Virus record (IMG/VR): IMGVR_UViG_3300032303_002590
Strand: one strand, 5' to 3'
Source of the DNA: a virus
Lineage: Duplodnaviria > Caudoviricetes
Length of the DNA stretch: 64,000 nt
Part shown: piece after piece, positions 11,642-55,356 of the stretch
Layout: each line of letters starts with the position of its first letter
Position numbering within the stretch: position 1 is the stretch's first letter
The notes under the pieces: model-generated
Seen by the model: the letters and a program-made list of their open reading frames with translations, nothing else
The model's database searches: none
What the model was told of the DNA's origin: nothing
Position numbers and translations under genes: made by a program

Positions 11642-11653
11642 ATCTCCCATAAT

Positions 11654-12412: not shown

Positions 12413-12431
12413 AAAGGATTTTCTTGGATGA

Positions 12432-34532: not shown

Positions 34533-34837
34533 TGGCAGCAATAGTACAAGATCCAAATGCAACTCTAAGATTCAAAAATGAATATATCATTTATGAACAG
34601 GAAGTTCGTTGTAAAGTAGGAGAAAATGATTTTAACATGACTCTAAACCCTACAATATCAACTGATAATTCAGGTTCATTAAGAGATTTTGCTACAGGAT
34701 CAGATTTTTCTCCTTATGTTACTACAGTAGGACTTTATAATAATAGAAGTGAATTATTAGCTGTAGCTAAATTAGCTCAACCAATTCCACTTTCTTCAAC
34801 AACAGATACAGTTTTTGTAATTAAATATGATATTTAG
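34532..34837 (+). CDS. structural protein; detached C-terminal domain paralogous to the 30504 C-terminus
   Basis: DFNMTLNP...YVTTVGLYN..SELLAVAKL..P. Confidence 0.75.
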   Translation: MAAIVQDPNATLRFKNEYIIYEQEVRCKVGENDFNMTLNPTISTDNSGSLRDFATGSDFSPYVTTVGLYNNRSELLAVAKLAQPIPLSSTTDTVFVIKYDI

Positions 34838-34872
34838 TATTGCATATTGCAATACGCAATCTAAAAAATAAA

Positions 34873-35562
34873 ATGGAAAATACATTTAATTTAAAAAAAT
34901 TCCTTGCTGAAGGGAAATTATTAAAAGAAGAACAAACCTCGAATTTAGAACAAATAAACCCTGATTTTACCTCAGATAAAATAGTTACTACTTCTAATTA
35001 CGCTAATGATAGGGGACAACTTAAATCTCAATTTGGTAAACAATCCTATGATTTTGGAGGAAGTGAAGATCCTATTCCAAATTCTATAATAGTAGATGAT
35101 GCTGAACCTGAAGGTGATAATGAATGGATTCAATTCGATTTAAATAAAGTTGGAAAATTTCCACCAAAAAAATATATCAATTCAACTTTTACTATAGATT
35201 ATATTGATAATCAAAATAATTTAATAAAAACTATCCTAAACTCATTAGAAAGTGGTGGTATATTAGTTGTTTCTGAAAATGTGAAATCTGTATCTGATTT
35301 TTACAATAAACTGAAAAATAATTTTGATATATTAGAAGTTTATGATTTTATGGGTGATTTAAACGAAGGTGTATATACTCCCGAAGAAAGACAAGAAATG
35401 GCTGATAATATAAGAAAAAAATATACCATAAATGGTGTATACTATGATCCTTATTATCCCCTCCCACCTGGACTTAAATATGATAATGAAATGGGGGGTG
35501 ATGGTGAAGACGAAGAAGTAGATGAAAATTCAGTAATATCCCTAATTTTAAAGAAAAAATAA
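34873..35562 (+). CDS. leader-bearing protein with class I SAM-methyltransferase-like fold (start revised from 34840)
   Basis: Leader MENTFNLKKFLAEGKLLKEE; YDFGG...IVD...IQFDL...SLESGGILVV. Confidence 0.55.
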   Translation: MENTFNLKKFLAEGKLLKEEQTSNLEQINPDFTSDKIVTTSNYANDRGQLKSQFGKQSYDFGGSEDPIPNSIIVDDAEPEGDNEWIQFDLNKVGKFPPKKYINSTFTIDYIDNQNNLIKTILNSLESGGILVVSENVKSVSDFYNKLKNNFDILEVYDFMGDLNEGVYTPEERQEMADNIRKKYTINGVYYDPYYPLPPGLKYDNEMGGDGEDEEVDENSVISLILKKK

Positions 35563-35566
35563 AATT

Positions 35567-36010
35567 ATGTGGTTATACGAAAATAAAGAAATAAAAGAAT
35601 TAACAGATATGCCCGAATCTACATTCGGGTTTATTTATGAAGTAACTCATTTACCTACAGGAAGAAAATACTTAGGTAAAAAGCAATTAATATCTGTTCA
35701 AAGAAAAGCTTTAGGTAAAAAAGAATTAGCTTTAATTACTGATAAAAGAGCTTCTAAAAAGAAAACTGTTACTAAAGAAAGTGATTGGAAAACCTATTAC
35801 GGATCAAATCCAACAATTAAACAGATGTTAAAAGAAGGTAAACAAGACGAATTTACAAGAGAAATTATTATGTTTGTACCTAACAAAAAATTATTAACTT
35901 ACTATGAAGACAAATATCTTTATATTAATGAGGTAATAGAAAAAGGAGATACATATTTTAATGACAATATTTCAGGTCGTTTCTTTAAAAAAGACTTTAT
36001 AAAAAACTAG
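35567..36010 (+). CDS. GIY-YIG endonuclease, T4 endonuclease II (DenA)-like
   Basis: GFIY.....TGRKYLGKK...ESDWKTYYGS...FNDNI. Confidence 0.8.
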   Translation: MWLYENKEIKELTDMPESTFGFIYEVTHLPTGRKYLGKKQLISVQRKALGKKELALITDKRASKKKTVTKESDWKTYYGSNPTIKQMLKEGKQDEFTREIIMFVPNKKLLTYYEDKYLYINEVIEKGDTYFNDNISGRFFKKDFIKN

Positions 36011-36038
36011 GATACCACAAAATAATTTATTATATTAC
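36007..36038 (+). promoter_or_regulatory. host-sigma-type promoter for the primase operon
   Basis: TAGG-N19-TATATT. Confidence 0.6.
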
Positions 36039-36055
36039 CATAAAAACCTCTTATT

Positions 36056-36208
36056 ATGAAACGTTACAGCTTATATAATAAAAATTTAACCGAGGCTATT
36101 AATTCAATTAAATCGGCTAATTTAGAAGGAGCAATATTATTTTTTGCTTCTCAAAAAAGATTAGAAATTGATCAATTTCATAAGTTATTTGACGTAAGAG
36201 AATCATAA
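36056..36208 (+). CDS. small hypothetical protein (50 aa, not in track)
   Basis: Fills the gap after the promoter; MKRYSLYNK... Confidence 0.65.
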   Translation: MKRYSLYNKNLTEAINSIKSANLEGAILFFASQKRLEIDQFHKLFDVRES

Positions 36209-36224
36209 ATAGAAAAACAAGGTT

Positions 36225-37160
36225 ATGATAAACGGAATATTATTAGGTCTAGTACAATCTGTACTAGGAAAGGGTAATGCTACCTCAAAAGGTAATTATG
36301 CTTTTCACTGCCCTTTATGTAATCATAGAAAACCCAAATTAGAAATTAATTTAGTACCAACAACTAAGAATGAAAATCCTTGGCATTGTTGGGCTTGTGA
36401 TATTAAAGGAAAAACAATTGCTTCTTTATTTAAATCAGTAAAAGCAGATAGAGAAAAATATTCTGAATTAAATTCCATCTTAGGTACCACAACTAAAATA
36501 GACCAATCAGATTTTAACCTTAACGTAGAATTACCGAAGGAATATAAACCATTATATAATCTGTCAAAAACAGATATTATCGCTAAACACGCGTTATCTT
36601 ACGTTAAAAAACGTGGTATAACACCCACAGATATACTCAAATACCAAATAGGATATTGTGAGATAGGAAGGTATGCTAATAAAATTATTATACCCAATTA
36701 TGATGCTGAAGGTAAATTAAATTACTTTATAGCTCGTTCATTTGAAAAAGATCCGTCTAGAAAATACGATGCAGTATCTACTGATAAGAATTCAATAATT
36801 GGATTTGAAAATTTAATAAATTGGAACTTACCTGTTATACTTTGTGAAGGAGCATTTGATGCAATTGCTATTAAAAGAAATGCAATACCTTTATATGGTA
36901 AAACAATGTCAAAACAATTAACTAAAAAATTATTGTCTAATAATATAAAAGACATATATTTAGCCCTGGATAGTGATGCTTTAAAAAGTACACTTAAAAT
37001 TGCCGGAGATCTACTCCACTCAGGAAAACAATTACATGTTGTGAAATTAGAAGGTAAAGACCCATCAGATATGGGCTTCGAACATTTTACACATTTAGTA
37101 CAAAATTCTCAAGAATTTACCTTTTCTGATCTTTTCTCACTCAAATTAGAAGTAAACTAA
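36225..37160 (+). CDS. DNA primase (zinc finger plus TOPRIM)
   Basis: CPLC...HCWAC; EGAFDA; LDSD; KDPSD. Confidence 0.92.
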   Translation: MINGILLGLVQSVLGKGNATSKGNYAFHCPLCNHRKPKLEINLVPTTKNENPWHCWACDIKGKTIASLFKSVKADREKYSELNSILGTTTKIDQSDFNLNVELPKEYKPLYNLSKTDIIAKHALSYVKKRGITPTDILKYQIGYCEIGRYANKIIIPNYDAEGKLNYFIARSFEKDPSRKYDAVSTDKNSIIGFENLINWNLPVILCEGAFDAIAIKRNAIPLYGKTMSKQLTKKLLSNNIKDIYLALDSDALKSTLKIAGDLLHSGKQLHVVKLEGKDPSDMGFEHFTHLVQNSQEFTFSDLFSLKLEVN

Positions 37161-37924
37161 TGAAAAAATCTTACGACAGAATTCTCCAAATTTCAGATGA
37201 CCACAAACAAATCACATTACCTGATTCTAGGTTTTACAGACGAAATGGAGATTATTATCCTTCAATAACACACGTTTTATCTTATTACCCAAAAGGTCCT
37301 CATTTTGAAGATTGGTTAAAAAAGGTAGGTTATGCTTCAGAATACATTGTAAAAAAAGCAGCTGAAGAAGGTACTCAAACTCATAATTTATGTGAAGATT
37401 ACTTAAATGGAGAAGAATGTTCATTCTTAAATCAATATGGTAATCCTGCTTATCCACCTCATGTGTGGCAAATGTTTTTGAATTTTGTTGATTTTTGGGA
37501 AACACAAAAACCAACTTTAATTGAAACTGAAGTACATTTATTTTCAGATGTTTTAAGAGTAGCAGGAACTTGTGATTTAATTATTGAGTTAAATGATGAA
37601 TTATGGGTATTAGATTTAAAAACTTCTAATCACTTACAAACCACTTATGATTTACAAACAGCTATTTATGGTCAATGCTATGAAGAATGTTATGGTAAAA
37701 CTATAAATAGACGTGGTGTATTATGGTTAAAATCAAAATCAAGAGGTGAAGATAAAACCGGTAAACGTTTAAAAGGTAAAAATTGGGAAATTGTTGAATC
37801 TGAAAGATCACAAGAACAAAACCTAAGCATTTTTAATAATGTTAAGGCTTTATTTGATTTAGAAAATCCTGCTCCTAAACCACACATTTTAACATTAAAA
37901 ACCACAGTTAAAAGGGAAGTGTAA
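37160..37924 (+). CDS. PD-(D/E)XK exonuclease (RecB/Cas4-like)
   Basis: YPSIT.VL...GT..H...E...AGTCD...DLKTS...Q...Y. Confidence 0.9.
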   Translation: MKKSYDRILQISDDHKQITLPDSRFYRRNGDYYPSITHVLSYYPKGPHFEDWLKKVGYASEYIVKKAAEEGTQTHNLCEDYLNGEECSFLNQYGNPAYPPHVWQMFLNFVDFWETQKPTLIETEVHLFSDVLRVAGTCDLIIELNDELWVLDLKTSNHLQTTYDLQTAIYGQCYEECYGKTINRRGVLWLKSKSRGEDKTGKRLKGKNWEIVESERSQEQNLSIFNNVKALFDLENPAPKPHILTLKTTVKREV

Positions 37925-37947
37925 ATATTTATATTAATAATATAAGA

Positions 37948-38700
37948 ATGATCAAACTAGCTACTTTATTAAAAGAAATACAAGGTACACCAAAAGCTAT
38001 ATTTTTAGCAGGTCCTGCTGGTAGTGGTAAGTCTACTTTGACTAAACAACTATTACCTTCCTCATACCAAGTTATTAATTCAGATGACACTTATGAAGAA
38101 CTTTTAAAAGCAAGTGGAATAGGTTTAAAACAAAAAGATTTTACTCCTGATCAATTATCACAAGCAGCTAAATTACAAGCACAAGCTAGAAAAACAACAC
38201 AAGATACATTAGCTAAATCCATCGAAGGTAAAAACAATATTATTATAGATGGAACTGGTGCTGCTTCAGGTCCTGTTTTAAAGAAAAAACAACAATTAGA
38301 GGATTTAGAGTACGAAACCTTAATGTTAATGATTTATGTTTCTCCTTTAACTTCACTTGAACGTAACCAAGAACGTGATAGAAGTTTAATACCCAGTATT
38401 GTGTTAAGAACATGGAGAGATGTTAATAAAAATATTAGTACTTACGAGCAAGCATTTGGAGATAATTTTATATTATTAAATAATGATTCTAAAGATTCAA
38501 ATAAAGGATTTTCACCCGAACTAATCAAACCCTTTACACAAGCCTCTTCTGCTATAGGAAAACCTAAAACACCAGAAGAAATGGCTAAATCTAAAGCTGA
38601 AAAAGATGCTTTGAATCAAGATATTGAATCAATGGTAAAAACTTTACCTAAATTTGATGATATAAGTTCTGCTAAATCTAAAATTCAAAATTTTATTTAA
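37948..38700 (+). CDS. P-loop kinase (AAA_33/zeta-like) with leader
   Basis: GPAGSGKST, INSD, IIDGT, ERN..R.R; N-terminus MIKLATLLKE. Confidence 0.85.
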   Translation: MIKLATLLKEIQGTPKAIFLAGPAGSGKSTLTKQLLPSSYQVINSDDTYEELLKASGIGLKQKDFTPDQLSQAAKLQAQARKTTQDTLAKSIEGKNNIIIDGTGAASGPVLKKKQQLEDLEYETLMLMIYVSPLTSLERNQERDRSLIPSIVLRTWRDVNKNISTYEQAFGDNFILLNNDSKDSNKGFSPELIKPFTQASSAIGKPKTPEEMAKSKAEKDALNQDIESMVKTLPKFDDISSAKSKIQNFI

Positions 38701-40145
38701 TGAATATTGGTAGACAAATAGTACAAGAACTATTAGAAGGTACAGAAAAAACAGTAGCTATTTATGGTGGTGGTTTTAAACCACCTACAAAAGGTCACTT
38801 TGAAGTAGCTAAATTAGCTTTAGAAAGACATCCAAATATAGACGAACTTATAATATATGTTGGTAGTGGAGTAAGAGATGGTATTACACAACAACAATCT
38901 GTAACCATTTGGAATATTTATAAAACTAAACTATCAGATAAAGTTCAAATAGTTACTCCTGATGTTCCTCCTGTTAGAGCAGTATTAAGATATGCTAAAG
39001 ATAATCCTGATACTAAGGTAATATGGATCTTAGGAGCAAGAGAAGACAGAGAAGAGGATTTTACAGATATAGCTAAACGAACTAAATCTATAGCTCAATA
39101 CCCAAACCTAACAGTAGATATAATATCAACTCAAGGTGGTATTTCAGGTACTGCAGCTAGACAAGCACTTAATTCTTCTAAAGAAGATTTCTTTCAATTT
39201 TTACCTGATGAGGTAGGACAACAAAAAAATGATATTTATGATATTTTAACCAATAACCAGTTTGAAGAAAGATTTATTCCTGGTCCTTTATTACATGAAT
39301 CTAAAATATTAAACGAATCCTTTACCCCTCAAAAAGCTCCATTAATGAAAAGATTTGTGGAATATGCTTGTAATCATTTAGATATAGATGAGCCTAAAAT
39401 AATGATAATAAATTCTCCTGAATACACTCAGGAACATCATAGTTTTGGAGGTTATTTTCCTCAAGAACATAAAATAAACGTTGTAGTTCATAATAGAAAC
39501 ATGGCTGATATTTTAAGAACATTAGCACACGAATTAGTTCATCACCTCCAAAATTTAAATGGGATGGAATTAAATGGTGAGGATGGTTCTGATACAGAAA
39601 ATGAAGCTAATGCTAGAGCAGGAGTAATAATGAGAGAATTTGGACGTAGTAATCCTGAAATTTTTGAAAGTAAATTAAATGAAGCAATAGTTGGTGATAG
39701 GATTGAATGTGATAATTGTGGTTGGAGTTGGCCAATAGCAGATGGGGGTGATGATCTTTTTATTTGTCATAAATGTGGACACGACAATACTGAGGAATAC
39801 GATGTTGAAAATGAACAAGATTTAAAAGAATTTATTTCATTTTTAAAAGAATATTCTCAACAATTATCTGAAGGAGAATTAACTGAAGCTGAATATCATG
39901 GACGTAAAGTTCAACTTGGTAAAATAATGCAAGGTGATATTAAGAAATTTAAAGTATACGTTAAAAATAACAAGGATAAAGTAGTTAAAGTTAACTTTGG
40001 GTTTGGTGGTTCATCAGCTCATGGTAAAAGAATGAACATTAAAGTACACAATCCTAAAAGAAGAGCAGCATATAGAGCAAGACATAATTGTGATAACCCA
40101 GGACCACGTTGGAAAGCGAATTATTGGTCTTGTAGAAAATGGTAA
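38700..40145 (+). CDS. multidomain protein: HIGH-type nucleotidyltransferase, HEXXH domain, Zn ribbon and C-terminal Cys/Trp domain
   Basis: GGFKPPTKGH...ISGTAAR; AHELVH; CDNC...CHKC; RHNC...YWSCRKW. Confidence 0.85.
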   Translation: MNIGRQIVQELLEGTEKTVAIYGGGFKPPTKGHFEVAKLALERHPNIDELIIYVGSGVRDGITQQQSVTIWNIYKTKLSDKVQIVTPDVPPVRAVLRYAKDNPDTKVIWILGAREDREEDFTDIAKRTKSIAQYPNLTVDIISTQGGISGTAARQALNSSKEDFFQFLPDEVGQQKNDIYDILTNNQFEERFIPGPLLHESKILNESFTPQKAPLMKRFVEYACNHLDIDEPKIMIINSPEYTQEHHSFGGYFPQEHKINVVVHNRNMADILRTLAHELVHHLQNLNGMELNGEDGSDTENEANARAGVIMREFGRSNPEIFESKLNEAIVGDRIECDNCGWSWPIADGGDDLFICHKCGHDNTEEYDVENEQDLKEFISFLKEYSQQLSEGELTEAEYHGRKVQLGKIMQGDIKKFKVYVKNNKDKVVKVNFGFGGSSAHGKRMNIKVHNPKRRAAYRARHNCDNPGPRWKANYWSCRKW

Positions 40146-40148
40146 TAA

Positions 40149-40688
40149 ATGATATCAATAAGTAAACTTTTCGAAGAAGAAAAACCAAAAATAAATTACG
40201 ACATCTATTGTGATATGGATGGTGTTTTAGCAGATTTTGAAGGTCGTTTTGAACACTTTACAGGAATGTCTCCTGATCAATATAGAGCAGAAATGACTAA
40301 AAAATACGGTGAGAAAAAAGCTGTAGATATGTTTTGGGATTTAATTGATCATGAAGTTGGAGTAAGATTTTGGAGAGGAATGTCTTGGATGCCTGGTGGT
40401 AAAGAATTATGGAATTATATTAAACCTAATAAACCTACTTTACTTACTGCCCCTTCATATAATGATTCCAGCAAAATTGGAAAAACTTTATGGGTACAAG
40501 ACCACATCCCAGGAGCTAAAATGATATTTAAGCAAGCTAAACAGAAAGCTGATTTAGCAGGTCCTAATAAAATATTAATTGATGATAGAGAAGATACTAT
40601 TATGAATTGGAAATCCAAAAATGGTATCGGAATTTTATATAAAAATACAGACCAAGCAATAAACGAATTAAAACAATTAGGAATATAA
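40149..40688 (+). CDS. HAD 5'(3')-nucleotidase (NT5C-like)
   Basis: DMDGVLADF...LLTA...K..W...ILIDD. Confidence 0.9.
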   Translation: MISISKLFEEEKPKINYDIYCDMDGVLADFEGRFEHFTGMSPDQYRAEMTKKYGEKKAVDMFWDLIDHEVGVRFWRGMSWMPGGKELWNYIKPNKPTLLTAPSYNDSSKIGKTLWVQDHIPGAKMIFKQAKQKADLAGPNKILIDDREDTIMNWKSKNGIGILYKNTDQAINELKQLGI

Positions 40689-40691
40689 GTT

Positions 40692-41261
40692 ATGTCACAA
40701 TTAAATAGAGAATTCGAAGAAAGAGATATCCAAAGAATGAGAAACATCATTTCAGGTAATACTGGAAATACTACTCGAATTCAATCCGGTTATAGTAAAG
40801 ATAAAGTTACTCATAGTGAAGGCGATACATGGGAAGAAAACGGTAAAACCTGGACTATTCACAGTGGTATTAAACAAACCGTCACCAAACACGATGCATT
40901 AAAGGCAATGGTAGAATTTCCACTTACTTGCCCATGTTGTTCTAAAGCAATGAAAGACATTCCATTAAACAGAAAAATGTATAACATACATTCTACATGT
41001 TTTGATTGTGTTGTTGAAATGGAACATAAATTACGTATGGAAGGTAAGTATGAAGCTTATGAAAAGCAAATGTTAAATGATAACAAAAATGCTACTATAG
41101 ATGATGCTGAACAAATGTTTGATGAGTATTTTAATTCAAAAAATAATACATACGTTACCGAAGCAGGTGATATAGAAAAATGGGATGGTGGTAGTATTGA
41201 CCCTGAAGTTATAAAACTAGTTAAAGATAATATAAAACGATTAAGAAAATTAGAAATATAA
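40692..41261 (+). CDS. hypothetical Zn-binding protein
   Basis: CPCC...CFDC. Confidence 0.75.
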   Translation: MSQLNREFEERDIQRMRNIISGNTGNTTRIQSGYSKDKVTHSEGDTWEENGKTWTIHSGIKQTVTKHDALKAMVEFPLTCPCCSKAMKDIPLNRKMYNIHSTCFDCVVEMEHKLRMEGKYEAYEKQMLNDNKNATIDDAEQMFDEYFNSKNNTYVTEAGDIEKWDGGSIDPEVIKLVKDNIKRLRKLEI

Positions 41262-41284
41262 ATATTTATATCAAAAAATAAACC

Positions 41285-41899
41285 ATGAGCAAATTAGACT
41301 TAAAAAACATAATTAAAGAAAGTATTACTGATTACTTATCAGAATTAAACTCCGTTAATGAAAATGATCCTGCTGTGCCATCTGATTCTACAGGTATGGC
41401 TTTGGATATGATAAATAAAACTCCAACACAAACTACAAGTGGAAATCCTCTTAGAGAAAAATCTCCAGATATCGTATTAGAAAATAATATTTCTAAAGAC
41501 GGTAAACTTTATTTAGTTAAAGAAGCTTTAAATGAATCAACTGATTCAAATATGATAGAGGAAAAACTACTATTAGACTTGATTGGTGAAGGATATACTG
41601 GTGTTTTTAATGATAAAAACAAAGCCATGGCTCATAGTAAAAAAGCTCTTAAAGAGAGAGATTTACTAATGAAAGAAAATGTTAAAAAAGGTCAAGCTAA
41701 AATTGGTGGTTTAGAAAAACAAGTAGCTGATTTAAAAGCTCAAATGCAAAAATTAATTGATAGTCCTGAAATGAGAGGTGAATTATCAAACTATACTGCT
41801 AAATTAGAAAAAACTGAACAAGTATTAGAAAAATTAAAAGCAGCAATAGAAAAATCTTCTCCTAAAAAAGCAAAGAAAGAAACTAAAGATGATGAATAA
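41285..41899 (+). CDS. leader-bearing coiled-coil late protein
   Basis: MSKLDLKNIIKE; several L/VxE sites. Confidence 0.75.
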   Translation: MSKLDLKNIIKESITDYLSELNSVNENDPAVPSDSTGMALDMINKTPTQTTSGNPLREKSPDIVLENNISKDGKLYLVKEALNESTDSNMIEEKLLLDLIGEGYTGVFNDKNKAMAHSKKALKERDLLMKENVKKGQAKIGGLEKQVADLKAQMQKLIDSPEMRGELSNYTAKLEKTEQVLEKLKAAIEKSSPKKAKKETKDDE

Positions 41900-43292
41900 T
41901 CTTGAACTTTTAAAAAATCATTTATATAAGTTAATTAAAGAGGAACTTGAAGGTGGTGAAGAGGAAAAACAAGCAGGACTTGAAAAAGCTCTGTATGATT
42001 TAGTACTTGAACCTGCTGATTTGCAAGCCACTTTATCAGCATTATCCGATATCAAAAATTATGGTATTTATGCTAATAATTTAAGAGATCCTAAAATTAT
42101 TGCTAAAATATTTGGTCCACCTGTACCTGCAACTAAAGGTAGAGTAGCTAAAGAAACTTGGGACCAAAGTAATGAAAACGAAAGACTTTCCAAAATAATT
42201 GATATTAAAAGTAGAGTACCACAAGAATGGACTAAAGTAGAACAACAGCTACAAAGCAAATTCGATGATTGGTCTGTTGAAAATGATAACGATTCATTTA
42301 ATGAATTTATAATTACATTAGATTCTAAAGAATTACCAATGGATTTCTTTGGTAAATATGCTTCTACATTTTATCCAATGAAAACACCTGATAACTTGAA
42401 AAAGTATAGTGGTGTAATGGCTAAAGATAAAGATTTTGTTGTTAATGGAGATAAAATTATTTTCCCACAAAAGAAAAACCCATTTGAAACTAAAGATTAC
42501 TTAACTAAAGTACTTAAAACTATAATGGGTAATGCTAAACTACAATATAGCTTATCCCAACAAGAATCAGAAGGTCAACCAGCAACTACTTCAAATACAC
42601 AAGGTAAAGTTGAAAAAATTAACTTCGTTAAAACATTTGACTCACCTGAATTAGCAGCTAAATTTAAAAAATTAATACCAAAAGATTTTGCTGAAAAAAC
42701 TACTATTGAAGGTAATAAAATCACAGTATCCGATATAACAGACTCACAAAAGAAAAATTTAATAGCTGCTGCATTAAAATTTGCAGAATCACAACCTAAA
42801 AAGAAACCAATGAAAGAATCATTAAAAGAACAAATATCTCAAATGGTAAGAGAGGTATTGATTGAAAAAAAATTAACTAAAGCACAACTTGTAGCTAGAG
42901 ATAAAGAAGGAAAAGATATTAAAAAGAAAAATCCTAAAATGCCCGAAGGTGAAGCTTTTGCTATTGCTACTAAAAATGTAGAAAAGAAAAAAGCTGTAAA
43001 AGAGGATTTAGATTCTGCTTTATCTAAATTAGTTAAAGATGATGATGCTTCTGAATTAGTAGCTCTTATAAAAAATTTACCAAATGCAGCTAGAGAAAAA
43101 GTAGCTCAAATGCTTAAAATAGATTTAAGTAAAGGAGAAATGGAAGAAGCTCGTTTTCCAAAAGGAACAGACATTGGTAAAAAAGGACCTGGATTTAAAG
43201 CTGTAGAAAAAGCTGCTGAAAAAGAATATGGTTCAAAAGAAGCAGGACAAAAAGTAGCAGGTGCTATACTTAAAAAAGTAATGAAAAAATAA
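41889..43292 (+). CDS. leader-bearing multidomain late protein
   Basis: KLIKEE leader; internal second leader-like segment SLKEQISQMVREVLIE; basic C-terminal modules. Confidence 0.75.
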   Translation: MMNNLELLKNHLYKLIKEELEGGEEEKQAGLEKALYDLVLEPADLQATLSALSDIKNYGIYANNLRDPKIIAKIFGPPVPATKGRVAKETWDQSNENERLSKIIDIKSRVPQEWTKVEQQLQSKFDDWSVENDNDSFNEFIITLDSKELPMDFFGKYASTFYPMKTPDNLKKYSGVMAKDKDFVVNGDKIIFPQKKNPFETKDYLTKVLKTIMGNAKLQYSLSQQESEGQPATTSNTQGKVEKINFVKTFDSPELAAKFKKLIPKDFAEKTTIEGNKITVSDITDSQKKNLIAAALKFAESQPKKKPMKESLKEQISQMVREVLIEKKLTKAQLVARDKEGKDIKKKNPKMPEGEAFAIATKNVEKKKAVKEDLDSALSKLVKDDDASELVALIKNLPNAAREKVAQMLKIDLSKGEMEEARFPKGTDIGKKGPGFKAVEKAAEKEYGSKEAGQKVAGAILKKVMKK

Positions 43293-43399
43293 TGTCAAAG
43301 TCAAGAAAAGTAGGTAAACAAAAACCTAACCACGGTAATCAAGTTAAAAGACAAAACGTTATTAAGAAAAACGAGCAAATTTTAACTAAATTAAAATAA
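43292..43399 (+). CDS. small basic peptide (35 aa, not in track)
   Basis: TAATG-coupled; MSKSRKVGKQKPNHGNQVKRQ... Confidence 0.6.
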   Translation: MSKSRKVGKQKPNHGNQVKRQNVIKKNEQILTKLK

Positions 43400-43400
43400 C

Positions 43401-43661
43401 ATGACAGAATCTACATTACGATACTTAATCAGAGAAGCAATAGAAGAAATTCATTTACAAAAACTATCTGAAAAATCTACTAATCCAACAGATAAAGTAA
43501 CTTTGGATATTCCACTTTTTATTCGTATGTTAGAATATGCGAGAGAGGATGCTCAAACTGATATGGATTTACATGATGTAACTGAAAAAACTATTGCTTT
43601 AAGCGCTAAAGGGAGAACTTTAACTATGGCTGACTATAATAAAATAGTAAGTAAAAAGTGA
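43401..43661 (+). CDS. leader-bearing small protein
   Basis: LRYLIREAIEE then DKVTLDIPLFIRMLEYAREDA. Confidence 0.8.
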   Translation: MTESTLRYLIREAIEEIHLQKLSEKSTNPTDKVTLDIPLFIRMLEYAREDAQTDMDLHDVTEKTIALSAKGRTLTMADYNKIVSKK

Positions 43662-43996
43662 TTAAATTAAGTCAATTAATAAACGAAATGGATTGTTGGG
43701 ATGGTAAAAAAATAGGCAATCCCAAAACTAAAATATCTTCTAAAACAGGTAAAAGAGTAAATAATTGTGTACCTATTAAAGAGGAAGAAGAAACATCTCA
43801 ATTAAATTTTCCTGATGGTTTTCAACCTGCAAAATCTGTTCCTCAAGGAGGAGCAATGTGTGCTAATTGTGCTAAATGGGATGAAAAAAATCAAGTTTGT
43901 AAAGGACAATACTATATTGAATGGAATGGTAATGGTGAAATACCTGCCGATCATACAGAATACGTTTGTATTTGGTGGGTAGATAAAAGAAAATAA
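43658..43996 (+). CDS. leader-bearing Cys-rich protein (HiPIP-like C-terminal motif)
   Basis: MIKLSQLINE; CWDG...NCVP; CANC..W...C...CIWW. Confidence 0.65.
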   Translation: MIKLSQLINEMDCWDGKKIGNPKTKISSKTGKRVNNCVPIKEEEETSQLNFPDGFQPAKSVPQGGAMCANCAKWDEKNQVCKGQYYIEWNGNGEIPADHTEYVCIWWVDKRK

Positions 43997-43998
43997 TT

Positions 43999-44343
43999 AT
44001 GATATCATTAAAAAATTTATTAAACGAAGGTACTCTAGATAAAATATTCCACTTAGATGGAATATTAATTGTAGACGATACTAATAGAAATCAAAAAGAT
44101 ATTCTATCTGATGTTCGTTCTTTACCTGGTATTACAGTAGTAAGAAACGTAGAGATGGAACAAGATGCTACTTCACGTTATTTTAGAAGTAGACTAGAAA
44201 TAAAAATTGATCCTTACCCATACGTTAAACAAGATAAATTTGATCCTACAGATACTATCCAAGTAATATCAGATAATATTAGAAAAATACCTGGAGTAAT
44301 AGGATTTAAAGAACAAGGAGACGTAACAACAACACAAGACTAA
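43999..44343 (+). CDS. leader-bearing small protein
   Basis: MISLKNLLNE; LSDVRSLPGIT...IRKIPGV. Confidence 0.75.
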   Translation: MISLKNLLNEGTLDKIFHLDGILIVDDTNRNQKDILSDVRSLPGITVVRNVEMEQDATSRYFRSRLEIKIDPYPYVKQDKFDPTDTIQVISDNIRKIPGVIGFKEQGDVTTTQD

Positions 44344-44346
44344 ATC

Positions 44347-44637
44347 ATGACTAAATTAGAACTTAAAAAATTGATAAAAGAAACCATATTAAATGAAATG
44401 GTTAATACCCATCCAGTACATAAAAGTATTAATAATAAATTAATGCAAATTGCTAATCGTGAAAAAATGAATAGCGATGAAGACAAGGTTGTTGGGTATG
44501 TTTTTTGGGATAAACCCGAAGATCCTGAAAATTATCTTCAAACTAGAGTTTATTTAAATAAAAAAACAGGAGAAAGATATGTTAAACAAGTAGGTGATGG
44601 TGTAGGAGAAGATTTAAATCAACCACCAAATGACTAA
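44347..44637 (+). CDS. leader-bearing small protein
   Basis: MTKLELKKLIKETILNE. Confidence 0.75.
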   Translation: MTKLELKKLIKETILNEMVNTHPVHKSINNKLMQIANREKMNSDEDKVVGYVFWDKPEDPENYLQTRVYLNKKTGERYVKQVGDGVGEDLNQPPND

Positions 44638-46468
44638 ACTATCAATATTAAGAAGATTAATCAAAGAAGAGATTGAGGATTTCCAAAATTCTCAACCTTT
44701 GACTTTTGAAAGTGATCCATTAGAGTATATTCTTCAAAAGTATTCTTCATTAAATGATACATTAGAAGATTTAATGACACCACACTATAGAGATTTTATT
44801 TCTGGTGTATTTGTAATAGCTCCTAAACCAACTACATTTAGAGTTATACTTCATAATAAACAAGAATTTCTTTTAATTTATGGAGAAACTTGTTATACTG
44901 CTAAAATAGCAGGTAAAAAGTATTATTTAGAAAATTTATCTGAAGAAGAATTTGCTATTACTTCTATTGCTCAATTATTAGAACTAGGTTTACCTCCAGG
45001 AAGTACTGGACCTGAAAAACCAGAAGAAAACGAAGCAAACCCAACCGAAGAAAAACCAGCAGAAGAAGCACCAGAAGAAGAAACTAAACCAGAACCTGTA
45101 AAAGAAGGGGTAAAAAAAAACTTAAAATTCGTTATTAAGGAGGCAAGTTTATCACCTGCCGAATTAGAAAAACCATTTACTTCAAAATCCGAATTTAAAG
45201 ATCAATATAGTGATAGAGGTGAAAGATTTTTAGATAAAATAAAAAATCAACAACCTTTTGAATTAAATGATGGTACTCAAGTAGTTTTAGATCCTAAAGC
45301 AACTGCTGAAGCTATTAAAGATTTACAATCTAAAGATTACAAAACTTTAGGTAAAGGTAAAATCTTTATTGATACTGAAGGTAATGCTTATGGGTTATCT
45401 GCATTTAAAAAAACACCTGAATTTGGAAGTGGAGCAGGACAAGGTGGAGGAGCTGAAAATACTGATGTACAAGAATCTGCTCAAAGCGTAGTAAATTCTA
45501 TTGCCTATAAAATTTTAGGAAAAACTATTAAAGCTGAAGATTTAACACCTGAAAATTTAACCGCAGCATATGCTATAAGTGATGTTACTGCTGGATTAGA
45601 TTCTATTATAGAATATGTTACTACTAAAAAACAATGGACATCAACCTTTGTTAATACTGCAAATTTATTATTAAAAACTTTCCCAAGTAAATCTTTACAA
45701 CAACATAGAGGTTCTTCATTTGTAAAATCAATATATGGAGCATTTTCTGTTGCTAAAAAACAAGAAGGTAGTTCATTAAACAATGACAAATGGAACCCAG
45801 CTGATATTTGGATGGTAGATGAATCTATATTAGGAATGGAATTTCCAACTAATTTAGAAGAACTAAATGGAGTAATGGCTGATTTATATACTAATAAAAA
45901 ATTAATTGGTGTTTCATTAAAACAATTAGCCGGAGAAGGAGAAATTAAAGTCTATAATTTAGATAAGGAAGCTACTAAATCACATCAATATAAAGGATAC
46001 GAATCAAGAGCTACAAATAACAATACTGTTTTAAATTATGATGATGGATCTATTACATTCAGAACATTTAATTTTGCAGGTAATTTTGCAGGTGAAATAA
46101 AAGGTAAAAAAGCTGCTCATGGTAAAATAGGTCAGGGCCCTATTAATGATGTGTTAAAATTAAATGGGTTAACATTATTACCTAATGCTAAAGAAGTTCA
46201 AGATGGGTTTAAAAGCAATAATCAAAAGCTAATTGATGACTTTTATCAATCATATAAAGAAATAGTTGAAAATATTAACCCTGAACAATTTGATGAACTT
46301 GTAAAATCAAAAGATTTAAACTGGTTAACATCTAAGTATTTATCTACTAAATTAGCATTTATATTAAAATCATTAGAACCTGAAAAACAAAATGAAGTAA
46401 TATCAGATATGTTAAATTATGCTTCTTCATCAACAAAATCTAGTTCAGTATTTGTAAAAGTATCTTAG
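44630..46468 (+). CDS. leader-bearing protein with PD-(D/E)XK-like C-terminal domain
   Basis: LRRLIKEE; P/E linker; QES...KWNPADIW...IGVSLK. Confidence 0.65.
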   Translation: MTKLSILRRLIKEEIEDFQNSQPLTFESDPLEYILQKYSSLNDTLEDLMTPHYRDFISGVFVIAPKPTTFRVILHNKQEFLLIYGETCYTAKIAGKKYYLENLSEEEFAITSIAQLLELGLPPGSTGPEKPEENEANPTEEKPAEEAPEEETKPEPVKEGVKKNLKFVIKEASLSPAELEKPFTSKSEFKDQYSDRGERFLDKIKNQQPFELNDGTQVVLDPKATAEAIKDLQSKDYKTLGKGKIFIDTEGNAYGLSAFKKTPEFGSGAGQGGGAENTDVQESAQSVVNSIAYKILGKTIKAEDLTPENLTAAYAISDVTAGLDSIIEYVTTKKQWTSTFVNTANLLLKTFPSKSLQQHRGSSFVKSIYGAFSVAKKQEGSSLNNDKWNPADIWMVDESILGMEFPTNLEELNGVMADLYTNKKLIGVSLKQLAGEGEIKVYNLDKEATKSHQYKGYESRATNNNTVLNYDDGSITFRTFNFAGNFAGEIKGKKAAHGKIGQGPINDVLKLNGLTLLPNAKEVQDGFKSNNQKLIDDFYQSYKEIVENINPEQFDELVKSKDLNWLTSKYLSTKLAFILKSLEPEKQNEVISDMLNYASSSTKSSSVFVKVS

Positions 46469-46489
46469 AATAAAAATAAATTAAATAAA

Positions 46490-46533
46490 GCTGCAACTCC
46501 ACTTGGATGTTGCAGTCTTTTTATGTATATTAA
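46490..46533 (+). terminator. terminator overlapping a TTGG-N19-TATATT promoter
   Basis: CTGCAAC..GTTGCAG stem plus TTTTT; TTGG lies in the hairpin. Confidence 0.7.
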
Positions 46534-46554
46534 TCCCTAGTAAAAATTTAAAAC

Positions 46555-47871
46555 ATGAGTAAAAAAATTGTAATTGTAGGTGCTGGTGTAGCAGGTATTA
46601 ATGCTGCAACTAAACTAGTAGATAACAACTATAAAGGTAAAATTACCATTATTGACATGGGTAAAGACCCACATAAAAGATTACCAAGTGAAGTAATGAC
46701 AGGAATGTTAGGAGCAGGAGGATGGTCTGATGGTAAATTAACTTATCATACTGCTATTGGTGGTCAATTAAAAAAATACTGTGGTGAAGAAAAAGCTATG
46801 GAGTTAATGGATCAAGTCATAACTAACTTTAAACGTTTTCATCCTAAACCTGAAGAAGTACAATGTTCAAATCCTGTTGCTGAACCTGACTTTATTAAAC
46901 CCCAATTTGGTTTACGTTTATTTCCTGTATGGCATGTAGGAACTGATTATCTATTAGAAATTGCTAAAAATTGGTATAAGTATTTAGTTGATAATGGTGT
47001 TGAATTTATGTGGGAAACTAAAGTATCTAATATTGATTTTAAAAAACAATTAGTTGATTTTCACCAAAATGATCTTAGATATACAGGTATGTATCATTAT
47101 GATGAACTCATATTTGGTGTAGGTAAATCAGGTATTGACTTTGGTAAAAAATTAGCTGAAAAATATAATCTACCAACTGAACCTAAATCAGTACAAATAG
47201 GTGTCCGTTTTGAAGCACCACAACATCACTTTCAAAAATTAATTGATGTATCTTATGACTTTAAGTTATATAGAAAATTTGATGATAAAGGAGTATCACT
47301 ACGTTCATTCTGTACTAATAATAATGCTGCTTATGTCGCTGTAGAAGAAACATACGGAAACTCTACTTACAACGGTCACGCTAAAAAAGACGAACGTTAT
47401 AGAAATGATATGACTAACTTTGGTATTATAATGGAGTTAAATGGTATTGAAGATCCATTTACTTGGAGTAGAGATGTTGTAAAACAACTTCAATCAATTG
47501 ATGATAAAGGTTTATATTACTCACCTTCAAGAAAACCATCATTAACTTCAGAAGGAGAACAAGTAGAAACTTTCCAAGTATCAGATGCCGATATGATTAG
47601 TGTAAGAAAAACATTTCAAGGTTACTTTAGATACATTGATGATTTTATTGATGATATGAAAAAAGTATTTCCTACATTAAAGGACGACTGGGGGATCTAT
47701 ATACCCGAGTGCAAATATCTTTCCCCAGAACCTCTTACAAATTATGAGGATTTATCCTTAACCAAATATCCCAATGTTCATTTTGTAGGGGATGCTTTAA
47801 GTGCAAGAGGAATCAGCGTTTCTGGAGGGCAGGGTATATATGTGGCTGAAAGTCTTTTAAAGAGAAATTAA
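46555..47871 (+). CDS. FAD-dependent oxidoreductase (uncharacterised dehydrogenase family)
   Basis: IVGAGVAG; GAGGWSDGKL; GVRFE; RSFC; VGD...GI. Confidence 0.9.
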   Translation: MSKKIVIVGAGVAGINAATKLVDNNYKGKITIIDMGKDPHKRLPSEVMTGMLGAGGWSDGKLTYHTAIGGQLKKYCGEEKAMELMDQVITNFKRFHPKPEEVQCSNPVAEPDFIKPQFGLRLFPVWHVGTDYLLEIAKNWYKYLVDNGVEFMWETKVSNIDFKKQLVDFHQNDLRYTGMYHYDELIFGVGKSGIDFGKKLAEKYNLPTEPKSVQIGVRFEAPQHHFQKLIDVSYDFKLYRKFDDKGVSLRSFCTNNNAAYVAVEETYGNSTYNGHAKKDERYRNDMTNFGIIMELNGIEDPFTWSRDVVKQLQSIDDKGLYYSPSRKPSLTSEGEQVETFQVSDADMISVRKTFQGYFRYIDDFIDDMKKVFPTLKDDWGIYIPECKYLSPEPLTNYEDLSLTKYPNVHFVGDALSARGISVSGGQGIYVAESLLKRN

Positions 47872-47912
47872 TTTTAATGTCTGGGACGTATATTTATAAT
47901 AAAATATAACAT

Positions 47913-48563
47913 ATGCGTCCTTACATTTACTTAGTTAAAAATCAATATAATATTATAGTTTATATTGGTCAACAAATAGGAACTAAATCCTTATTAGAAT
48001 ATAAAGGGTCTGGTTTATTATTAAATAGAGCCTATAAAAAATATGGAGAAGATAAATTTACAAGAGAAATAATTGAATATTGTGATATTGATGAATTAAA
48101 TAGTAATGAAAAATTCTATATAAAATATTATAATACTAAATTTCCTCATGGTTATAATTTAACTGACGGTGGAGATGGGAATAAAGGTTTAAAATTTACT
48201 AAAGAGCAAAAGCAAAAAATTAGTCAAAATAAAAAGGGACACGAATGTTATTCTAACCCTGAAAGGGGAGAAAAAATAAGACAATCTAAATTAGGCAAAA
48301 CCCACACACAAGAAACTAAAGATAAGATTATTAAAACCAAAGCCTCTAAACATAACATAACCCCAGACCTAAATTTAAAAGGGCAATATAAAAGTAACTC
48401 ACAAAAATCTATAAAACAATACAATTTAGAAAATCAGTTAATTAATGAATATCAATCAGCCCAAGAAGCAGGAAGATGTTTAGGGAAATCAGGAAATCAA
48501 ATAGCAGATTGCGCCTCAGGTAGACAAAAAACAGCTTACGGATTCACTTGGAAATACAAATAA
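47913..48563 (+). CDS. free-standing GIY-YIG homing endonuclease with NUMOD3/NUMOD1-type DNA-binding modules
   Basis: YIY...YIGQ...YKGSG...GYNLTDGG; HTQETKDKI; SAQEAGR...TAYGFTW. Confidence 0.88.
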   Translation: MRPYIYLVKNQYNIIVYIGQQIGTKSLLEYKGSGLLLNRAYKKYGEDKFTREIIEYCDIDELNSNEKFYIKYYNTKFPHGYNLTDGGDGNKGLKFTKEQKQKISQNKKGHECYSNPERGEKIRQSKLGKTHTQETKDKIIKTKASKHNITPDLNLKGQYKSNSQKSIKQYNLENQLINEYQSAQEAGRCLGKSGNQIADCASGRQKTAYGFTWKYK

Positions 48564-48582
48564 TTTTTATTATATTAGACAC

Positions 48583-48825
48583 ATGGAAGAACAAGATTAT
48601 AAATCAAGAACACTAACCACTGAAGATGGTAGAACTATCATTTATTTTGATGGTAAACTACATTCATGGGATGGACCAGCATTAAGATATGCTAAGGAAT
48701 TAAAGAAAAAAGATGAATATTATTTATATGGGTTTCAGTACACTAAAGAAGAATGGTTAGAAGCACGTAGAGATAGACATGGAGTACCACCAGATAAAAA
48801 TCCACAAGTAACATCAAGATTTTAA
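48583..48825 (+). CDS. small protein with LH..DGPA motif
   Basis: GKLHSWDGPAL...EYYLYG; preceded by TTGG-N19-TATATT. Confidence 0.75.
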   Translation: MEEQDYKSRTLTTEDGRTIIYFDGKLHSWDGPALRYAKELKKKDEYYLYGFQYTKEEWLEARRDRHGVPPDKNPQVTSRF

Positions 48826-48855
48826 TATTTATTATTATAACCAAAAAATTAAAAA

Positions 48856-49194
48856 ATGGAAAACACATTTAATTTAAAATCATTCCTTGCTGAAGGGAAA
48901 TTACTAAAAGAAGAAATTCAAAACCTAGAACCTAAAATTCAAGCCTTTAAAAATTATGCAGAACCTAAAGTAGAAGACTTTAGAGACTTTTTACTATTTC
49001 TTGCTGAAGGTATGGGACATCACCAAGATTTTACTAAATATTCTGATATTGACTTAATCAAAATGGCTATTGAATTTGATGAGGAAGAATCAGGAAATGA
49101 CTGGTTAGAAGATAACTATGGAATTGATGTGTTAGATGGAGAGATAGCTTCATATAATGATGAAATAGAAACTTCTGGTAAAAGAGAAAGATAA
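48856..49194 (+). CDS. leader-bearing acidic protein
   Basis: Leader MENTFNLKSFLAEGKLLKEE is almost identical to that of 34873. Confidence 0.8.
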   Translation: MENTFNLKSFLAEGKLLKEEIQNLEPKIQAFKNYAEPKVEDFRDFLLFLAEGMGHHQDFTKYSDIDLIKMAIEFDEEESGNDWLEDNYGIDVLDGEIASYNDEIETSGKRER

Positions 49195-54495: not shown

Positions 54496-55356
54496 ATGGC
54501 TAATATAAAGCACAACAAATATAAAAATACTGGGATCCTATTTGAATTACTTGTAAGAAAAATTACAGCTGATACAATGTCCAGTCATGATTCTAAGGCT
54601 GTTTCTTTGATTAAAAAGTATTTTGTGAATACTGAATTATCTAAAGAAAATAAATTGTATCAATCGATATCTAAATCCCAAAGTATTAGTGAAGCTCAAG
54701 CTGATTCAATCCTTTCAACCATCTTAGAAGTAAACAAAACTTTAGATAGAACTAAAATATCAAAAGAAAAATATAATTTAATTAAAGAAATTAAATCTAA
54801 TTTTGATATTGATGATTTTTTTAAAGCTAAAATTAATAATTACAAATTATTATCTTCCACTTATACATTATTAGAAGCTAGTTTAGCACCATCTAAATTT
54901 TTAGATGATATTCTTTCTGCTAAAATGAATATTTTAGAGAATATAGCACAAACTAACGCTATAAGTGTTCCACAACCCACAGTAAGTGAGTTTGAAACAT
55001 TAGATAAAGGAACTCGTGCTTTAGTTTATAAAATAATGTTAGAAAAATTCAATGACAGATTTAATACATTATCTGATGATCAGAAAGAAGTATTAAAAGA
55101 GTACATTAATAATATTTCTAACACTACCAATTTAAAAAAATACGTGGATACTAAATTCACATCATTAAAAGAATCTCTTTTAAAACTTTTACCTACAATA
55201 GAGGACGCTACAATTAAAATTAAAGTGAATGAGACAATAAATCTTATTAACCCTATTTTAGAATCTAAAGTTATAAAAGACGATAATATAGTTGCATTAT
55301 TACAATATCAAGAACTACATAGTGAATTAACAAAAATTCATAATGCAAATAGATAA
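54496..55356 (+). CDS. conserved head-region protein
   Basis: Between portal and protease; own late promoter. Confidence 0.75.
   Translation: MANIKHNKYKNTGILFELLVRKITADTMSSHDSKAVSLIKKYFVNTELSKENKLYQSISKSQSISEAQADSILSTILEVNKTLDRTKISKEKYNLIKEIKSNFDIDDFFKAKINNYKLLSSTYTLLEASLAPSKFLDDILSAKMNILENIAQTNAISVPQPTVSEFETLDKGTRALVYKIMLEKFNDRFNTLSDDQKEVLKEYINNISNTTNLKKYVDTKFTSLKESLLKLLPTIEDATIKIKVNETINLINPILESKVIKDDNIVALLQYQELHSELTKIHNANR

What the first reader, a model, noticed from the sequence alone, without database searches (positions are those of the whole stretch)
34868..48915. One leader module duplicated at DNA level onto two unrelated cargoes 14 kb apart
Seen: the first 60 coding bases at 34873 and 48856 differ at only about 4 positions (MENTFNLKKFLAEGKLLKEE vs MENTFNLKSFLAEGKLLKEE). 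Similarity stops abruptly after KEE. One body looks like a SAM-methyltransferase fold; the other is a small acidic domain. Both genes sit as isolated insertions between conserved genes. Inference: the leader is a recently copied, portable module and a recombination point for swapping cargo.
Basis: partly seen in the sequence, partly recalled or inferred. Interest (0 to 1): 0.75.

Follow-up and report, generated by a model that had tools for sequence, protein, structure and literature searches.

The report
Shared capsid-address tag on phage genes
Two unrelated genes of a T4-like Flavobacterium phage start with the same 20-residue tag, which is found on hundreds of other small acidic proteins in related uncultured phages and most likely loads them into the phage head, as the capsid targeting sequence of T4's internal proteins does.

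Summary
The first 60 coding bases at 34873 and 48856 differ at 4 positions, similarity ends after codon 20, and the two bodies are unrelated: one has a class I methyltransferase-like fold, the other is a small acidic helical protein.

The leader is not special to this pair. A profile of it finds 376 protein clusters in public metagenomes, almost always at residue 1. The bodies fall into dozens of unrelated families, about 94% of them acidic. A cultured relative, Flavobacterium phage immuto, has four such genes.

The window also holds a T4-type head module: portal, gp21-type prohead protease, a scaffold-position protein and a gp23 capsid protein. The leader carries two (L/I)-x-E sites. The first, F-L-A-E/G, closely matches the T4 capsid targeting sequence F-I-A-E/A.

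The methyltransferase-like body occurs in relatives behind two other N-terminal tags. One copies the C-terminal peptide of the scaffold-position protein.

Best reading (about 0.55): a capsid-targeting, protease-cleaved propeptide on head-packaged cargo proteins. "Portable module" is supported. "Recently copied" is not. No virion proteomics exists, so packaging is inferred. Other first readers of this scan proposed similar ideas for the same genome.

The parts
34873..34932 (+). Leader copy 1 (MENTFNLKKFLAEGKLLKEE), with predicted cleavage motifs FLAE/G and LLKE/E
34933..35562 (+). Cargo 1: class I methyltransferase-like fold, acidic (whole protein pI 4.4). It lacks a canonical GxGxG motif, and sequence hits to MTase families are below threshold.
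48856..48915 (+). Leader copy 2 (MENTFNLKSFLAEGKLLKEE)
48916..49194 (+). Cargo 2: small acidic (pI 4.2-4.3), predicted helical domain. Only one other cluster is known, and no family or fold could be assigned.
48825..48833 (+). ATATTTATT, a one-base variant of the ATATTTATA motif that precedes the structural genes. It lies 23 nt upstream of the ATG at 48856.
57797..58414 (+). gp21-type prohead protease (Peptidase_S77), the predicted processing enzyme. Its own N-terminus reads LLIE, like LLIE in T4 gp21.
58603..59619 (+). Acidic protein in the scaffold (gp22) position. Its N-terminus MANENTKIFSEAIAEAKAIRE is the best N-terminal match to the leader in the window. Its C-terminus is KRMQQLAGII. The scaffold assignment rests on position and composition only.
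59658..61307 (+). gp23-type major capsid protein. LLE/G and ILE/N sites lie before the Gp23 domain, which starts at residue 78.
55343..56077 (+). Head-module protein between portal and protease (the gp67/68 position). Its N-terminus LKELVLKHLAELLDEE is a 'class B' type leader.
52526..54454 (+). Portal protein (T4 gp20 type)
35567..36010 (+). SegE-like GIY-YIG homing endonuclease directly downstream of leader gene 1. A neighbour, not part of the mechanism.
47913..48563 (+). Homing endonuclease-like gene (PHROG homing-endonuclease families, NUMOD1 domain) 290 nt upstream of leader gene 2. A neighbour.

Best explanation
The 20-residue leader is a capsid-targeting propeptide of the kind known from the T4 internal proteins. 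During head assembly the leader binds the scaffolding core of the prohead, so whatever protein follows it is enclosed. The gp21-type prohead protease (57797-58414) then cuts after Glu in the leader's (L/I)-x-E sites: FLAE/G at residue 13 and LLKE/E at residue 19. The freed cargo stays in the head and would be ejected into the host with the DNA. Because the address is a short self-contained cassette at the 5' end, recombination can put it in front of any small gene, which explains the many unrelated cargoes. Shown here: the leader, its portability, the T4-type head machinery and the motif matches. Inferred: binding to the core, cleavage, packaging and ejection.
For: (1) The window encodes a T4-type head module. 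It has a portal (phrog_213, 1.5e-63), a Peptidase_S77 protease (5.7e-31), an acidic protein in the scaffold position, and a Gp23 capsid protein (7.9e-74).
(2) The leader core T-F-x4-F-L-A-E/G parallels the T4 capsid targeting sequence (CTS) M-K-T-Y-Q-E-F-I-A-E/A and the gp23 site F-L-T-E/A, read directly from the T4 record. The reviews PMC9026906 and PMC5694885 describe 10-20-residue CTS propeptides cut after Glu by gp21.
(3) T4 ipII and ipIII share an identical first 30 nt and then diverge, which is the same DNA pattern.
(4) Among 86 other ORFs in the window, the N-terminus most like the leader belongs to the scaffold-position protein (score 32, next best 18).
(5) Two or more (L/I)xE sites in the first 22 residues occur in 12 of 58 ORFs beyond 12.7 kb. 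These include the protease, the scaffold-position protein, the core-position protein and both leader genes. The count is 0 of 30 in the early array (Fisher p = 0.0067).
(6) The same methyltransferase-like body carries alternative tags in relatives. One is MKKLQLKxIIKEE, the type found on the head-module protein between portal and protease. The other is KRMQQLAGI, a copy of the C-terminal peptide of the scaffold-position protein.
(7) Leader genes co-occur with an S77 protease in every sufficiently complete record: this genome, immuto (four leader genes), G001 and G008.
(8) 48856 sits behind the motif that precedes the structural genes, 34873 closes the tail-spike gene run, and two immuto leader genes lie directly upstream of terL and portal.
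Against: No virion proteomics or cleavage data exist for this phage group, so packaging is an inference. About 94% of the cargoes are strongly acidic (median pI about 4.1-4.3), whereas T4 internal proteins are basic. (L/I)xE is a short motif that is common in K/E/L-rich proteins (0.015 per residue). The similarity to the scaffold N-terminus is modest and does not co-vary: the immuto scaffold keeps AIAEAK while the immuto leader reads FLVENK. The scaffold assignment is positional only; BLASTP against T4 gp22 gives E = 0.14. Several leader genes lie among replication genes, and in G001 they lie behind the TTTCGTATATTTA motif of the small-ORF array. T4 IP genes also sit behind early-type promoters, so this last point does not exclude the reading.
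Confidence: 0.55

Rival explanations
1. The leader is a cytoplasmic interaction or sorting tag unrelated to the capsid. For example, it could be a docking helix for a host or phage factor, shared by a large set of small acidic early effector proteins such as DNA-mimic or anti-defence proteins.
For: The bodies are small and very acidic, which is typical of phage early inhibitors. Many leader genes lie among replication genes. In G001 both copies follow the TTTCGTATATTTA motif of the small-ORF array.
Against: It does not explain the F-L-A-E/G match to the T4 CTS. It does not explain the alternative tags on the same cargo that copy head-core protein ends. It does not explain the absence of the leader from all 30 ORFs of the early array.
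Confidence: 0.27
2. The leader proteins are accessory prohead core or scaffold components, like the acidic T4 gp67 and gp68. They would be degraded or expelled at maturation rather than delivered as cargo.
For: T4 gp67 is small and acidic with N-terminal (L/I)xE sites. The leader resembles the scaffold N-terminus.
Against: Dozens to hundreds of unrelated, folded bodies (one with a methyltransferase fold) are unexpected for a structural filler.
Confidence: 0.1
3. The conservation lies at the DNA or RNA level only: a translation-initiation element, a small hairpin, or a recombination or homing-endonuclease target. The peptide would have no role.
For: The unusual Leu codon CTT at codon 11 is kept in 10 of 11 copies, and a 6-bp hairpin can form. 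Both window copies lie next to homing endonuclease genes.
Against: Fold z-scores are -0.9 and -1.0, and there is no Rfam hit. The commonest Gly codon (GGA) breaks the hairpin. Synonymous changes are frequent while the residues stay invariant. The immuto variants keep the peptide pattern with different DNA. Only 2 of the other loci have a related endonuclease nearby.
Confidence: 0.05
4. The two genes are ordinary paralogues whose bodies have diverged beyond recognition.
For: They share an N-terminus in one genome.
Against: BLASTP of the bodies gives E = 0.44. One body has a methyltransferase alpha/beta fold and the other is predicted all-helical. The methyltransferase-like body exists with three different leaders.
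Confidence: 0.03

Closest known systems
Capsid targeting sequence (CTS) of the phage T4 internal proteins IPI, IPII, IPIII and Alt, cut by the prohead protease gp21 (Mullaney and Black 1996; reviews PMC3012670, PMC9026906)
   Same: A short N-terminal propeptide on otherwise unrelated proteins. It is identical at DNA level between paralogous loci (ipII and ipIII share their first 30 nt). It has an F-(I/L)-A-E/(A/G) core, and the phage has a gp21-family protease and a gp20-gp21-gp22-gp23 head module. The genes lie in variable regions, sometimes next to seg-type endonucleases.
   Different: The leader is 20 residues with two predicted sites, against 10 in IPII and IPIII. The cargoes are acidic rather than basic. 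The repertoire is far larger (hundreds of clusters). Some ORFs hold several leader-cargo units fused in frame. There is no detectable sequence homology to T4 IPs beyond the motif. Packaging has not been shown.
Propeptides of ejection and inner-body proteins of giant phages (phiKZ, 201phi2-1, SPN3US), cut at (A/S/G)-x-E (PMC5694885)
   Same: A related protease family that cuts after Glu, N-terminal propeptides thought to target proteins into the prohead, and identical N-termini on diverged paralogues (SPN3US gp53 and gp54).
   Different: Those propeptides are mostly over 100 residues, the motif has a small residue at P3 rather than L/I, and the cargoes are large virion proteins.
Cargo-loading peptides of encapsulins
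   Same: A short conserved peptide directs diverse cargo enzymes into an HK97-fold shell.
   Different: The peptide is usually C-terminal and is not cleaved, the compartment is cellular rather than a virion, and there is no sequence relation.
Phage P1 Dar antirestriction system (DarB, a head-packaged methyltransferase/helicase) (DarB details recalled from general knowledge; the P1 paper listed was not read)
   Same: It is a precedent for a methyltransferase-type protein packaged in a head and injected to protect incoming DNA.
   Different: Incorporation is ordered and depends on Hdf and DarA, there is no short shared leader, the proteins are very large, and the phage lineage is unrelated.

Membership tests
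T4-type CTS / internal-protein system | The phage encodes a gp21-family (Peptidase_S77) prohead protease within a T4-type head module | tested here: met
   Peptidase_S77 5.7e-31 at 57797-58414, Gp23 7.9e-74 at 59658-61307, and portal phrog_213
T4-type CTS / internal-protein system | A 10-20-residue N-terminal propeptide ending in an (L/I)-x-E cleavage motif | tested here: met
   FLAE (10-13) and LLKE (16-19) occur in both window proteins, and a second LxE is kept in all variants (LTE, LLKE, LINE)
T4-type CTS / internal-protein system | The same propeptide on otherwise unrelated proteins, conserved at DNA level | tested here: met
   the T4 comparison is
T4-type CTS / internal-protein system | Proteins present in the mature head with the propeptide removed | not testable with these tools
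   No proteomic data were found for immuto or its relatives
T4-type CTS / internal-protein system | The leader is sufficient to package a foreign protein | not testable with these tools
   This needs a fusion experiment
T4-type CTS / internal-protein system | Cargo is basic, DNA-associated internal protein | tested here: not met
   Median body pI is 4.1-4.3, about 94% are below 5.5, and about 4% are above 8
T4-type CTS / internal-protein system | Sequence homology to T4 IPI, IPII, IPIII or Alt | tested here: not met
   P0001 and P0002 have no PHROG or Pfam hit to IP families, and tblastn against phage records gives nothing relevant. Only the motif is similar.
Class I SAM-dependent methyltransferase (cargo 1) | Rossmann-like methyltransferase fold | tested here: met
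   The AF2 model has pLDDT 81, 114 PDB hits have E <= 1e-3, and every hit listed is a methyltransferase or methyltransferase-containing enzyme (TM-scores about 0.3-0.5)
Class I SAM-dependent methyltransferase (cargo 1) | Canonical SAM-binding motif I (GxGxG) and a score above the family threshold | tested here: not met
   Motif I reads YDFGGSE. All Pfam methyltransferase hits are below the gathering score. The best sequence hits are the N-terminal domain family of phosphoethanolamine N-methyltransferase 2 (Pfam PF17987 PMT2_N) and the PMT-2 chain 4krh

The most novel reading that the evidence does not exclude
T4-like phages of marine and freshwater Flavobacteriia run a modular head-cargo system with at least three interchangeable N-terminal address tags. 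Two of the tags resemble the two ends of the scaffold-position protein. The system loads hundreds of unrelated, mostly acidic effector proteins, among them a methyltransferase-fold protein and in-frame multi-cargo polyproteins, into the capsid for co-injection with the DNA. That would be a large, unexplored reservoir of injected host-takeover or anti-defence proteins, recognisable from sequence alone.
Probability: 0.35. Interest if true: 0.8.

Novelty: new variant of a known kind. Interest (0 to 1): 0.6.

Why it matters
If the tag is a capsid address, any gene carrying it can be read from raw metagenomes as a protein delivered into the host with the phage DNA. That would give a catalogue of hundreds of candidate first-minute effectors in an ecologically important phage group. 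It would show that the T4 CTS principle, so far documented mainly in T-even coliphages, is ancient and widely used. It would also offer a short tag for loading proteins into Flavobacterium phage heads. The reuse of the scaffold-position protein's C-terminal peptide as a tag suggests how such addresses can arise.

Tried and rejected
- **RNA element:** the two leader regions fold no better than shuffles (z = -0.9 and -1.0), and Rfam finds nothing in 34-50 kb.
- **Paralogy:** BLASTP of the two bodies gives E = 0.44.
- **Homing-endonuclease target:** both window copies have an endonuclease gene as neighbour. Among 12 other loci, only L005 and the immuto locus have a related one within a few kb.
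- **Co-variation of leader and scaffold N-terminus:** none seen. The immuto scaffold keeps AIAEAK while its leader reads FLVENK.
- **Promoter timing as a discriminator:** not decisive. The two motif classes share the core TATATTTA, leader genes occur behind either class, and T4 IP genes themselves sit behind early-type promoters.
- **Phage isolate records:** tblastn with P0001 found nothing, and only the immuto isolates carry a variant leader.
- **Cargo 2:** the AF2 model is too poor for a fold search (pLDDT 52), the Atlas gave no usable hit, and only one related cluster exists.
- **Scaffold-position protein against T4 gp22:** not significant, E = 0.14.
- **Whole genome:** none is held. The third leader gene of this genome (P0055) could be placed by its gene neighbours only, because no DNA was returned.
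- **Profile search with a 21-residue alignment:** It was redone with 40 residues.
- **Miller 2003 T4 genome review:** not held.
Full report
**Observation.** The ATG at 34873 opens a 229-aa ORF (P0001), and the ATG at 48856 opens a 112-aa ORF (P0002).
- The first 60 nt differ at four positions. Two are synonymous third-base changes, and a two-base change gives K9S.
- The repeat finder lists the pair as a 70-nt repeat of 90% identity (D13).
- The shared 21-mer occurs twice, against 0 in 100 shuffles.
- Upstream of the ATG there is only generic A-rich sequence. Downstream, similarity ends after codon 20.
- BLASTP of the two bodies gives E = 0.44.

**The phage.** The window is from a roughly 160-kb phage; the protein database lists P0001 on a 160,191-nt contig.
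- It is related to Flavobacterium phage vB_FspM_immuto.
- It holds an array of small ORFs, each behind TTTCGTATATTTA (25 copies in 0.3-12.7 kb).
- It also holds baseplate and tail-fibre genes, and replication and nucleotide-metabolism genes.
- Its head module is T4-type:
  - terminase at 50891;
  - portal at 52526;
  - three unassigned genes;
  - a Peptidase_S77 (gp21-type) protease at 57797 (5.7e-31);
  - an acidic 338-aa protein in the scaffold position at 58603;
  - a Gp23 capsid protein at 59658 (7.9e-74).

**The leader is widespread and portable.**
- IMG/VR contigs carry the same leader on other bodies.
- A 40-column profile finds 368 proteins at E <= 1 in the 90%-identity database.
- The same profile finds 376 clusters at E <= 0.001 among 1.84 billion 50%-identity representatives. 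In 141 of the best 150, the match starts at residue 1-4.
- 131 unique leader proteins give 41 body clusters at E < 1e-5 and at least 50% coverage.
- Bodies are 30 to about 700 aa and strongly acidic: median pI 4.1-4.3, about 94% below 5.5.
- At one syntenic slot (polA-like gene | 155-aa gene | X | SSB-like gene) related contigs hold different leader-cargo genes. This genome's third leader gene, P0055, sits in that slot.
- The cultured immuto phage has four leader genes with the variant MEN(T)FDLKKFLVENKLT..LLxE.
- Some database ORFs contain two to four leader-cargo units fused in frame.

**Not a recent duplication.**
- The 34873 leader matches the L003 leader at 55 of 57 nt, but its partner in the window at only 53 of 57.
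- Across 11 copies, invariant residues (N3, F5, N6, G14, L16) use several codons.
- Some codon choices are kept (Leu11 CTT and Ala12 GCT in 10 of 11 copies), which points to descent of a DNA cassette.
- The module therefore spreads by recombination and is held by selection on the peptide.

**What it most likely does.** I noted the capsid-targeting idea, before looking at earlier notes of this scan. The evidence is as follows.
- **Match to the T4 CTS.**
  - The T4 record shows ipII and ipIII sharing an identical first 30 nt (MKTYQEFIAE) and then diverging. That is the same DNA pattern as here.
  - The reviews state that T4 internal proteins have 10-19-residue propeptides that target them to the prohead core and are cut by gp21 after Glu. 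They also state that only the CTS is conserved among diverse internal proteins (PMC3012670, PMC9026906, PMC5694885).
  - The leader core T-F-x4-F-L-A-E/G parallels T-Y-x2-F-I-A-E/A of the T4 CTS and F-L-T-E/A of T4 gp23.
  - A second L-x-E follows in every variant.
- **Cleavage-type sites in the head proteins.**
  - The capsid protein here has LLE/G and ILE/N before its Gp23 domain.
  - The protease begins LLIE, as T4 gp21 does.
- **Resemblance to the scaffold-position protein.** Among 86 other ORFs, its N-terminus (ENTKIFSEAIAEAKAIRE) is the best N-terminal match to the leader (score 32, next best 18).
- **Enrichment of N-terminal sites.**
  - Two or more (L/I)xE sites in the first 22 residues occur in 12 of 58 ORFs beyond 12.7 kb.
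  - These include the protease, the scaffold-position protein, the core-position protein and both leader genes.
  - The count is 0 of 30 in the early array (p = 0.0067).
- **Alternative tags on the same cargo (the strongest point).**
  - The body of P0001 occurs in relatives behind two other tags.
  - One is MKKLQLKxIIKEE. That type is also the N-terminus of the small head-module protein between portal and protease.
  - The other is KRMQQLAGI, a copy of the C-terminal peptide of the scaffold-position protein (window ...KRMQQLAGII, G001 ...LRMQKLAGII, immuto ...RWQKLAGIIK).
  - Immuto has a further gene starting MKKQILSEQFRRMQKLAGIITE.
- **Co-occurrence with the protease.** Leader genes occur together with an S77 protease in this genome, immuto, G001 and the 25-kb fragment G008. 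The other records are 14-55% complete.
- **Gene context.**
  - ATATTTATA lies 18 of 19 times on the + strand, mostly just before structural genes.
  - A one-base variant of it lies 23 nt before 48856.
  - 34873 follows the tail-spike genes after 35 nt.
  - Two immuto leader genes lie directly upstream of terL and portal, one behind the same CTATTTATA as the portal gene.

**Cautions.**
- No proteomics exists for this group.
- The cargoes are acidic, unlike the basic T4 internal proteins.
- (L/I)xE is a short motif.
- The scaffold assignment is positional only.
- The leader does not co-vary with the scaffold N-terminus.
- In G001 the leader genes follow the small-ORF-array motif. T4 IP genes also sit behind early-type promoters, so this does not decide the matter.

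**Cargoes.**
- **Cargo 1:**
  - It models well (pLDDT 81), and its Foldseek hits are class I SAM methyltransferases (TM-scores about 0.3-0.5).
  - Motif I reads YDFGGSE, and all family hits are below threshold. The best are the N-terminal domain family of phosphoethanolamine N-methyltransferase 2 (Pfam PMT2_N) and the PMT-2 chain 4krh.
  - Catalytic competence is therefore open.
- **Cargo 2:** it is a small acidic helical domain with one known relative and no assignable fold.

**Rivals.**
- A cytoplasmic docking tag on early acidic effectors (0.27).
- Accessory core proteins that are degraded at maturation (0.10).
- A purely DNA- or RNA-level element (0.05; fold z about -1, no Rfam hit, frequent synonymous change).
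- Plain paralogues (0.03).

**Verdict.** The best reading is a CTS-like head-cargo address, which is a new variant of a known kind in a distant branch of T4-like phages, with an unusually large and acidic cargo repertoire. Other first readers of this scan proposed similar head-cargo ideas for the same genome. I treated those as leads only.

Noticed in passing
window 58603-59619 (C-terminus at 59584-59616); P0128, P0134-P0136; immuto MW353175 near 111.65 kb (L033): The C-terminal peptide of the scaffold-position protein (KRMQQLAGII) recurs as an N-terminal tag on non-scaffold proteins in relatives. These include methyltransferase-like homologues of P0001 and a 154-aa immuto gene (MKKQILSEQFRRMQKLAGIITE). 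It may be a second kind of capsid address that mimics the scaffold end.
   Followed up: partly
window 37948-46468, also 20077 and 55343: A run of consecutive genes, among them a P-loop kinase-like protein and a 5'-3' deoxyribonucleotidase, start with M..L..L(I/L)(K/R)E-type N-termini ('class B'). The same type sits on the head-module protein at 55343 and on methyltransferase-like homologues P0125-P0133. N-terminal (L/I)xE density is 0.035 against 0.013 in the rest of these proteins.
   Followed up: partly
window 340-12706: There are 25 copies of TCGTATATT(T/A)A, each before one or a few tiny ORFs and often right after a terminator-like hairpin. This is probably the early promoter class.
   Followed up: partly
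window 13190-62090 (for example 16921, 20065, 22863, 29810, 37925, 41262, 47890, 49805, 50868, 52500, 54460, 56226, 61365, 62082): The ATATTTATA motif is not more frequent than chance, but 18 of 19 copies are on the + strand and most lie 15-40 nt before gene starts of structural and some replication genes. It is a candidate middle or late promoter, comparable to TATAAATA in T4.
   Followed up: partly
P0003, P0005, P0006, P0014, P0016, P0028, P0063 (database proteins): Some ORFs contain two to four leader-cargo units in one frame, joined by ...ENK(M/I)NN before the next FDLRKYLAEGKLLKE. They may be polyproteins that the protease would separate, or lost stop codons between tandem genes.
   Followed up: partly
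window 35567-36010 and 47913-48563: Two homing endonuclease-type genes (SegE-like GIY-YIG; a NUMOD1-domain gene with PHROG homing-endonuclease hits) flank the two leader genes. The homologue of the first is annotated 'NAD synthetase' in immuto, which looks like a mis-annotation.
   Followed up: partly
window 31416-31475 and 34715-34774: A 60-nt repeat of 87% identity encodes the shared C-terminal motif (Y.TTVG.YN...ELLAVAKL) of the genes 30504-31538 and 34532-34837, which lie among the tail-fibre and tail-spike genes.
   Followed up: no
immuto MW353175: 125626-126867, 117631-118632, 125241-125468 (L032): The scaffold-position gene is annotated 'DNA polymerase phi-like protein', and a leader-bearing gene is annotated 'cob(I)alamin adenosyltransferase'. 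A 75-aa ORF with a leader-like start (MENNFDIHKWQAKFLKE) sits between the protease and the scaffold-position gene.
   Followed up: no
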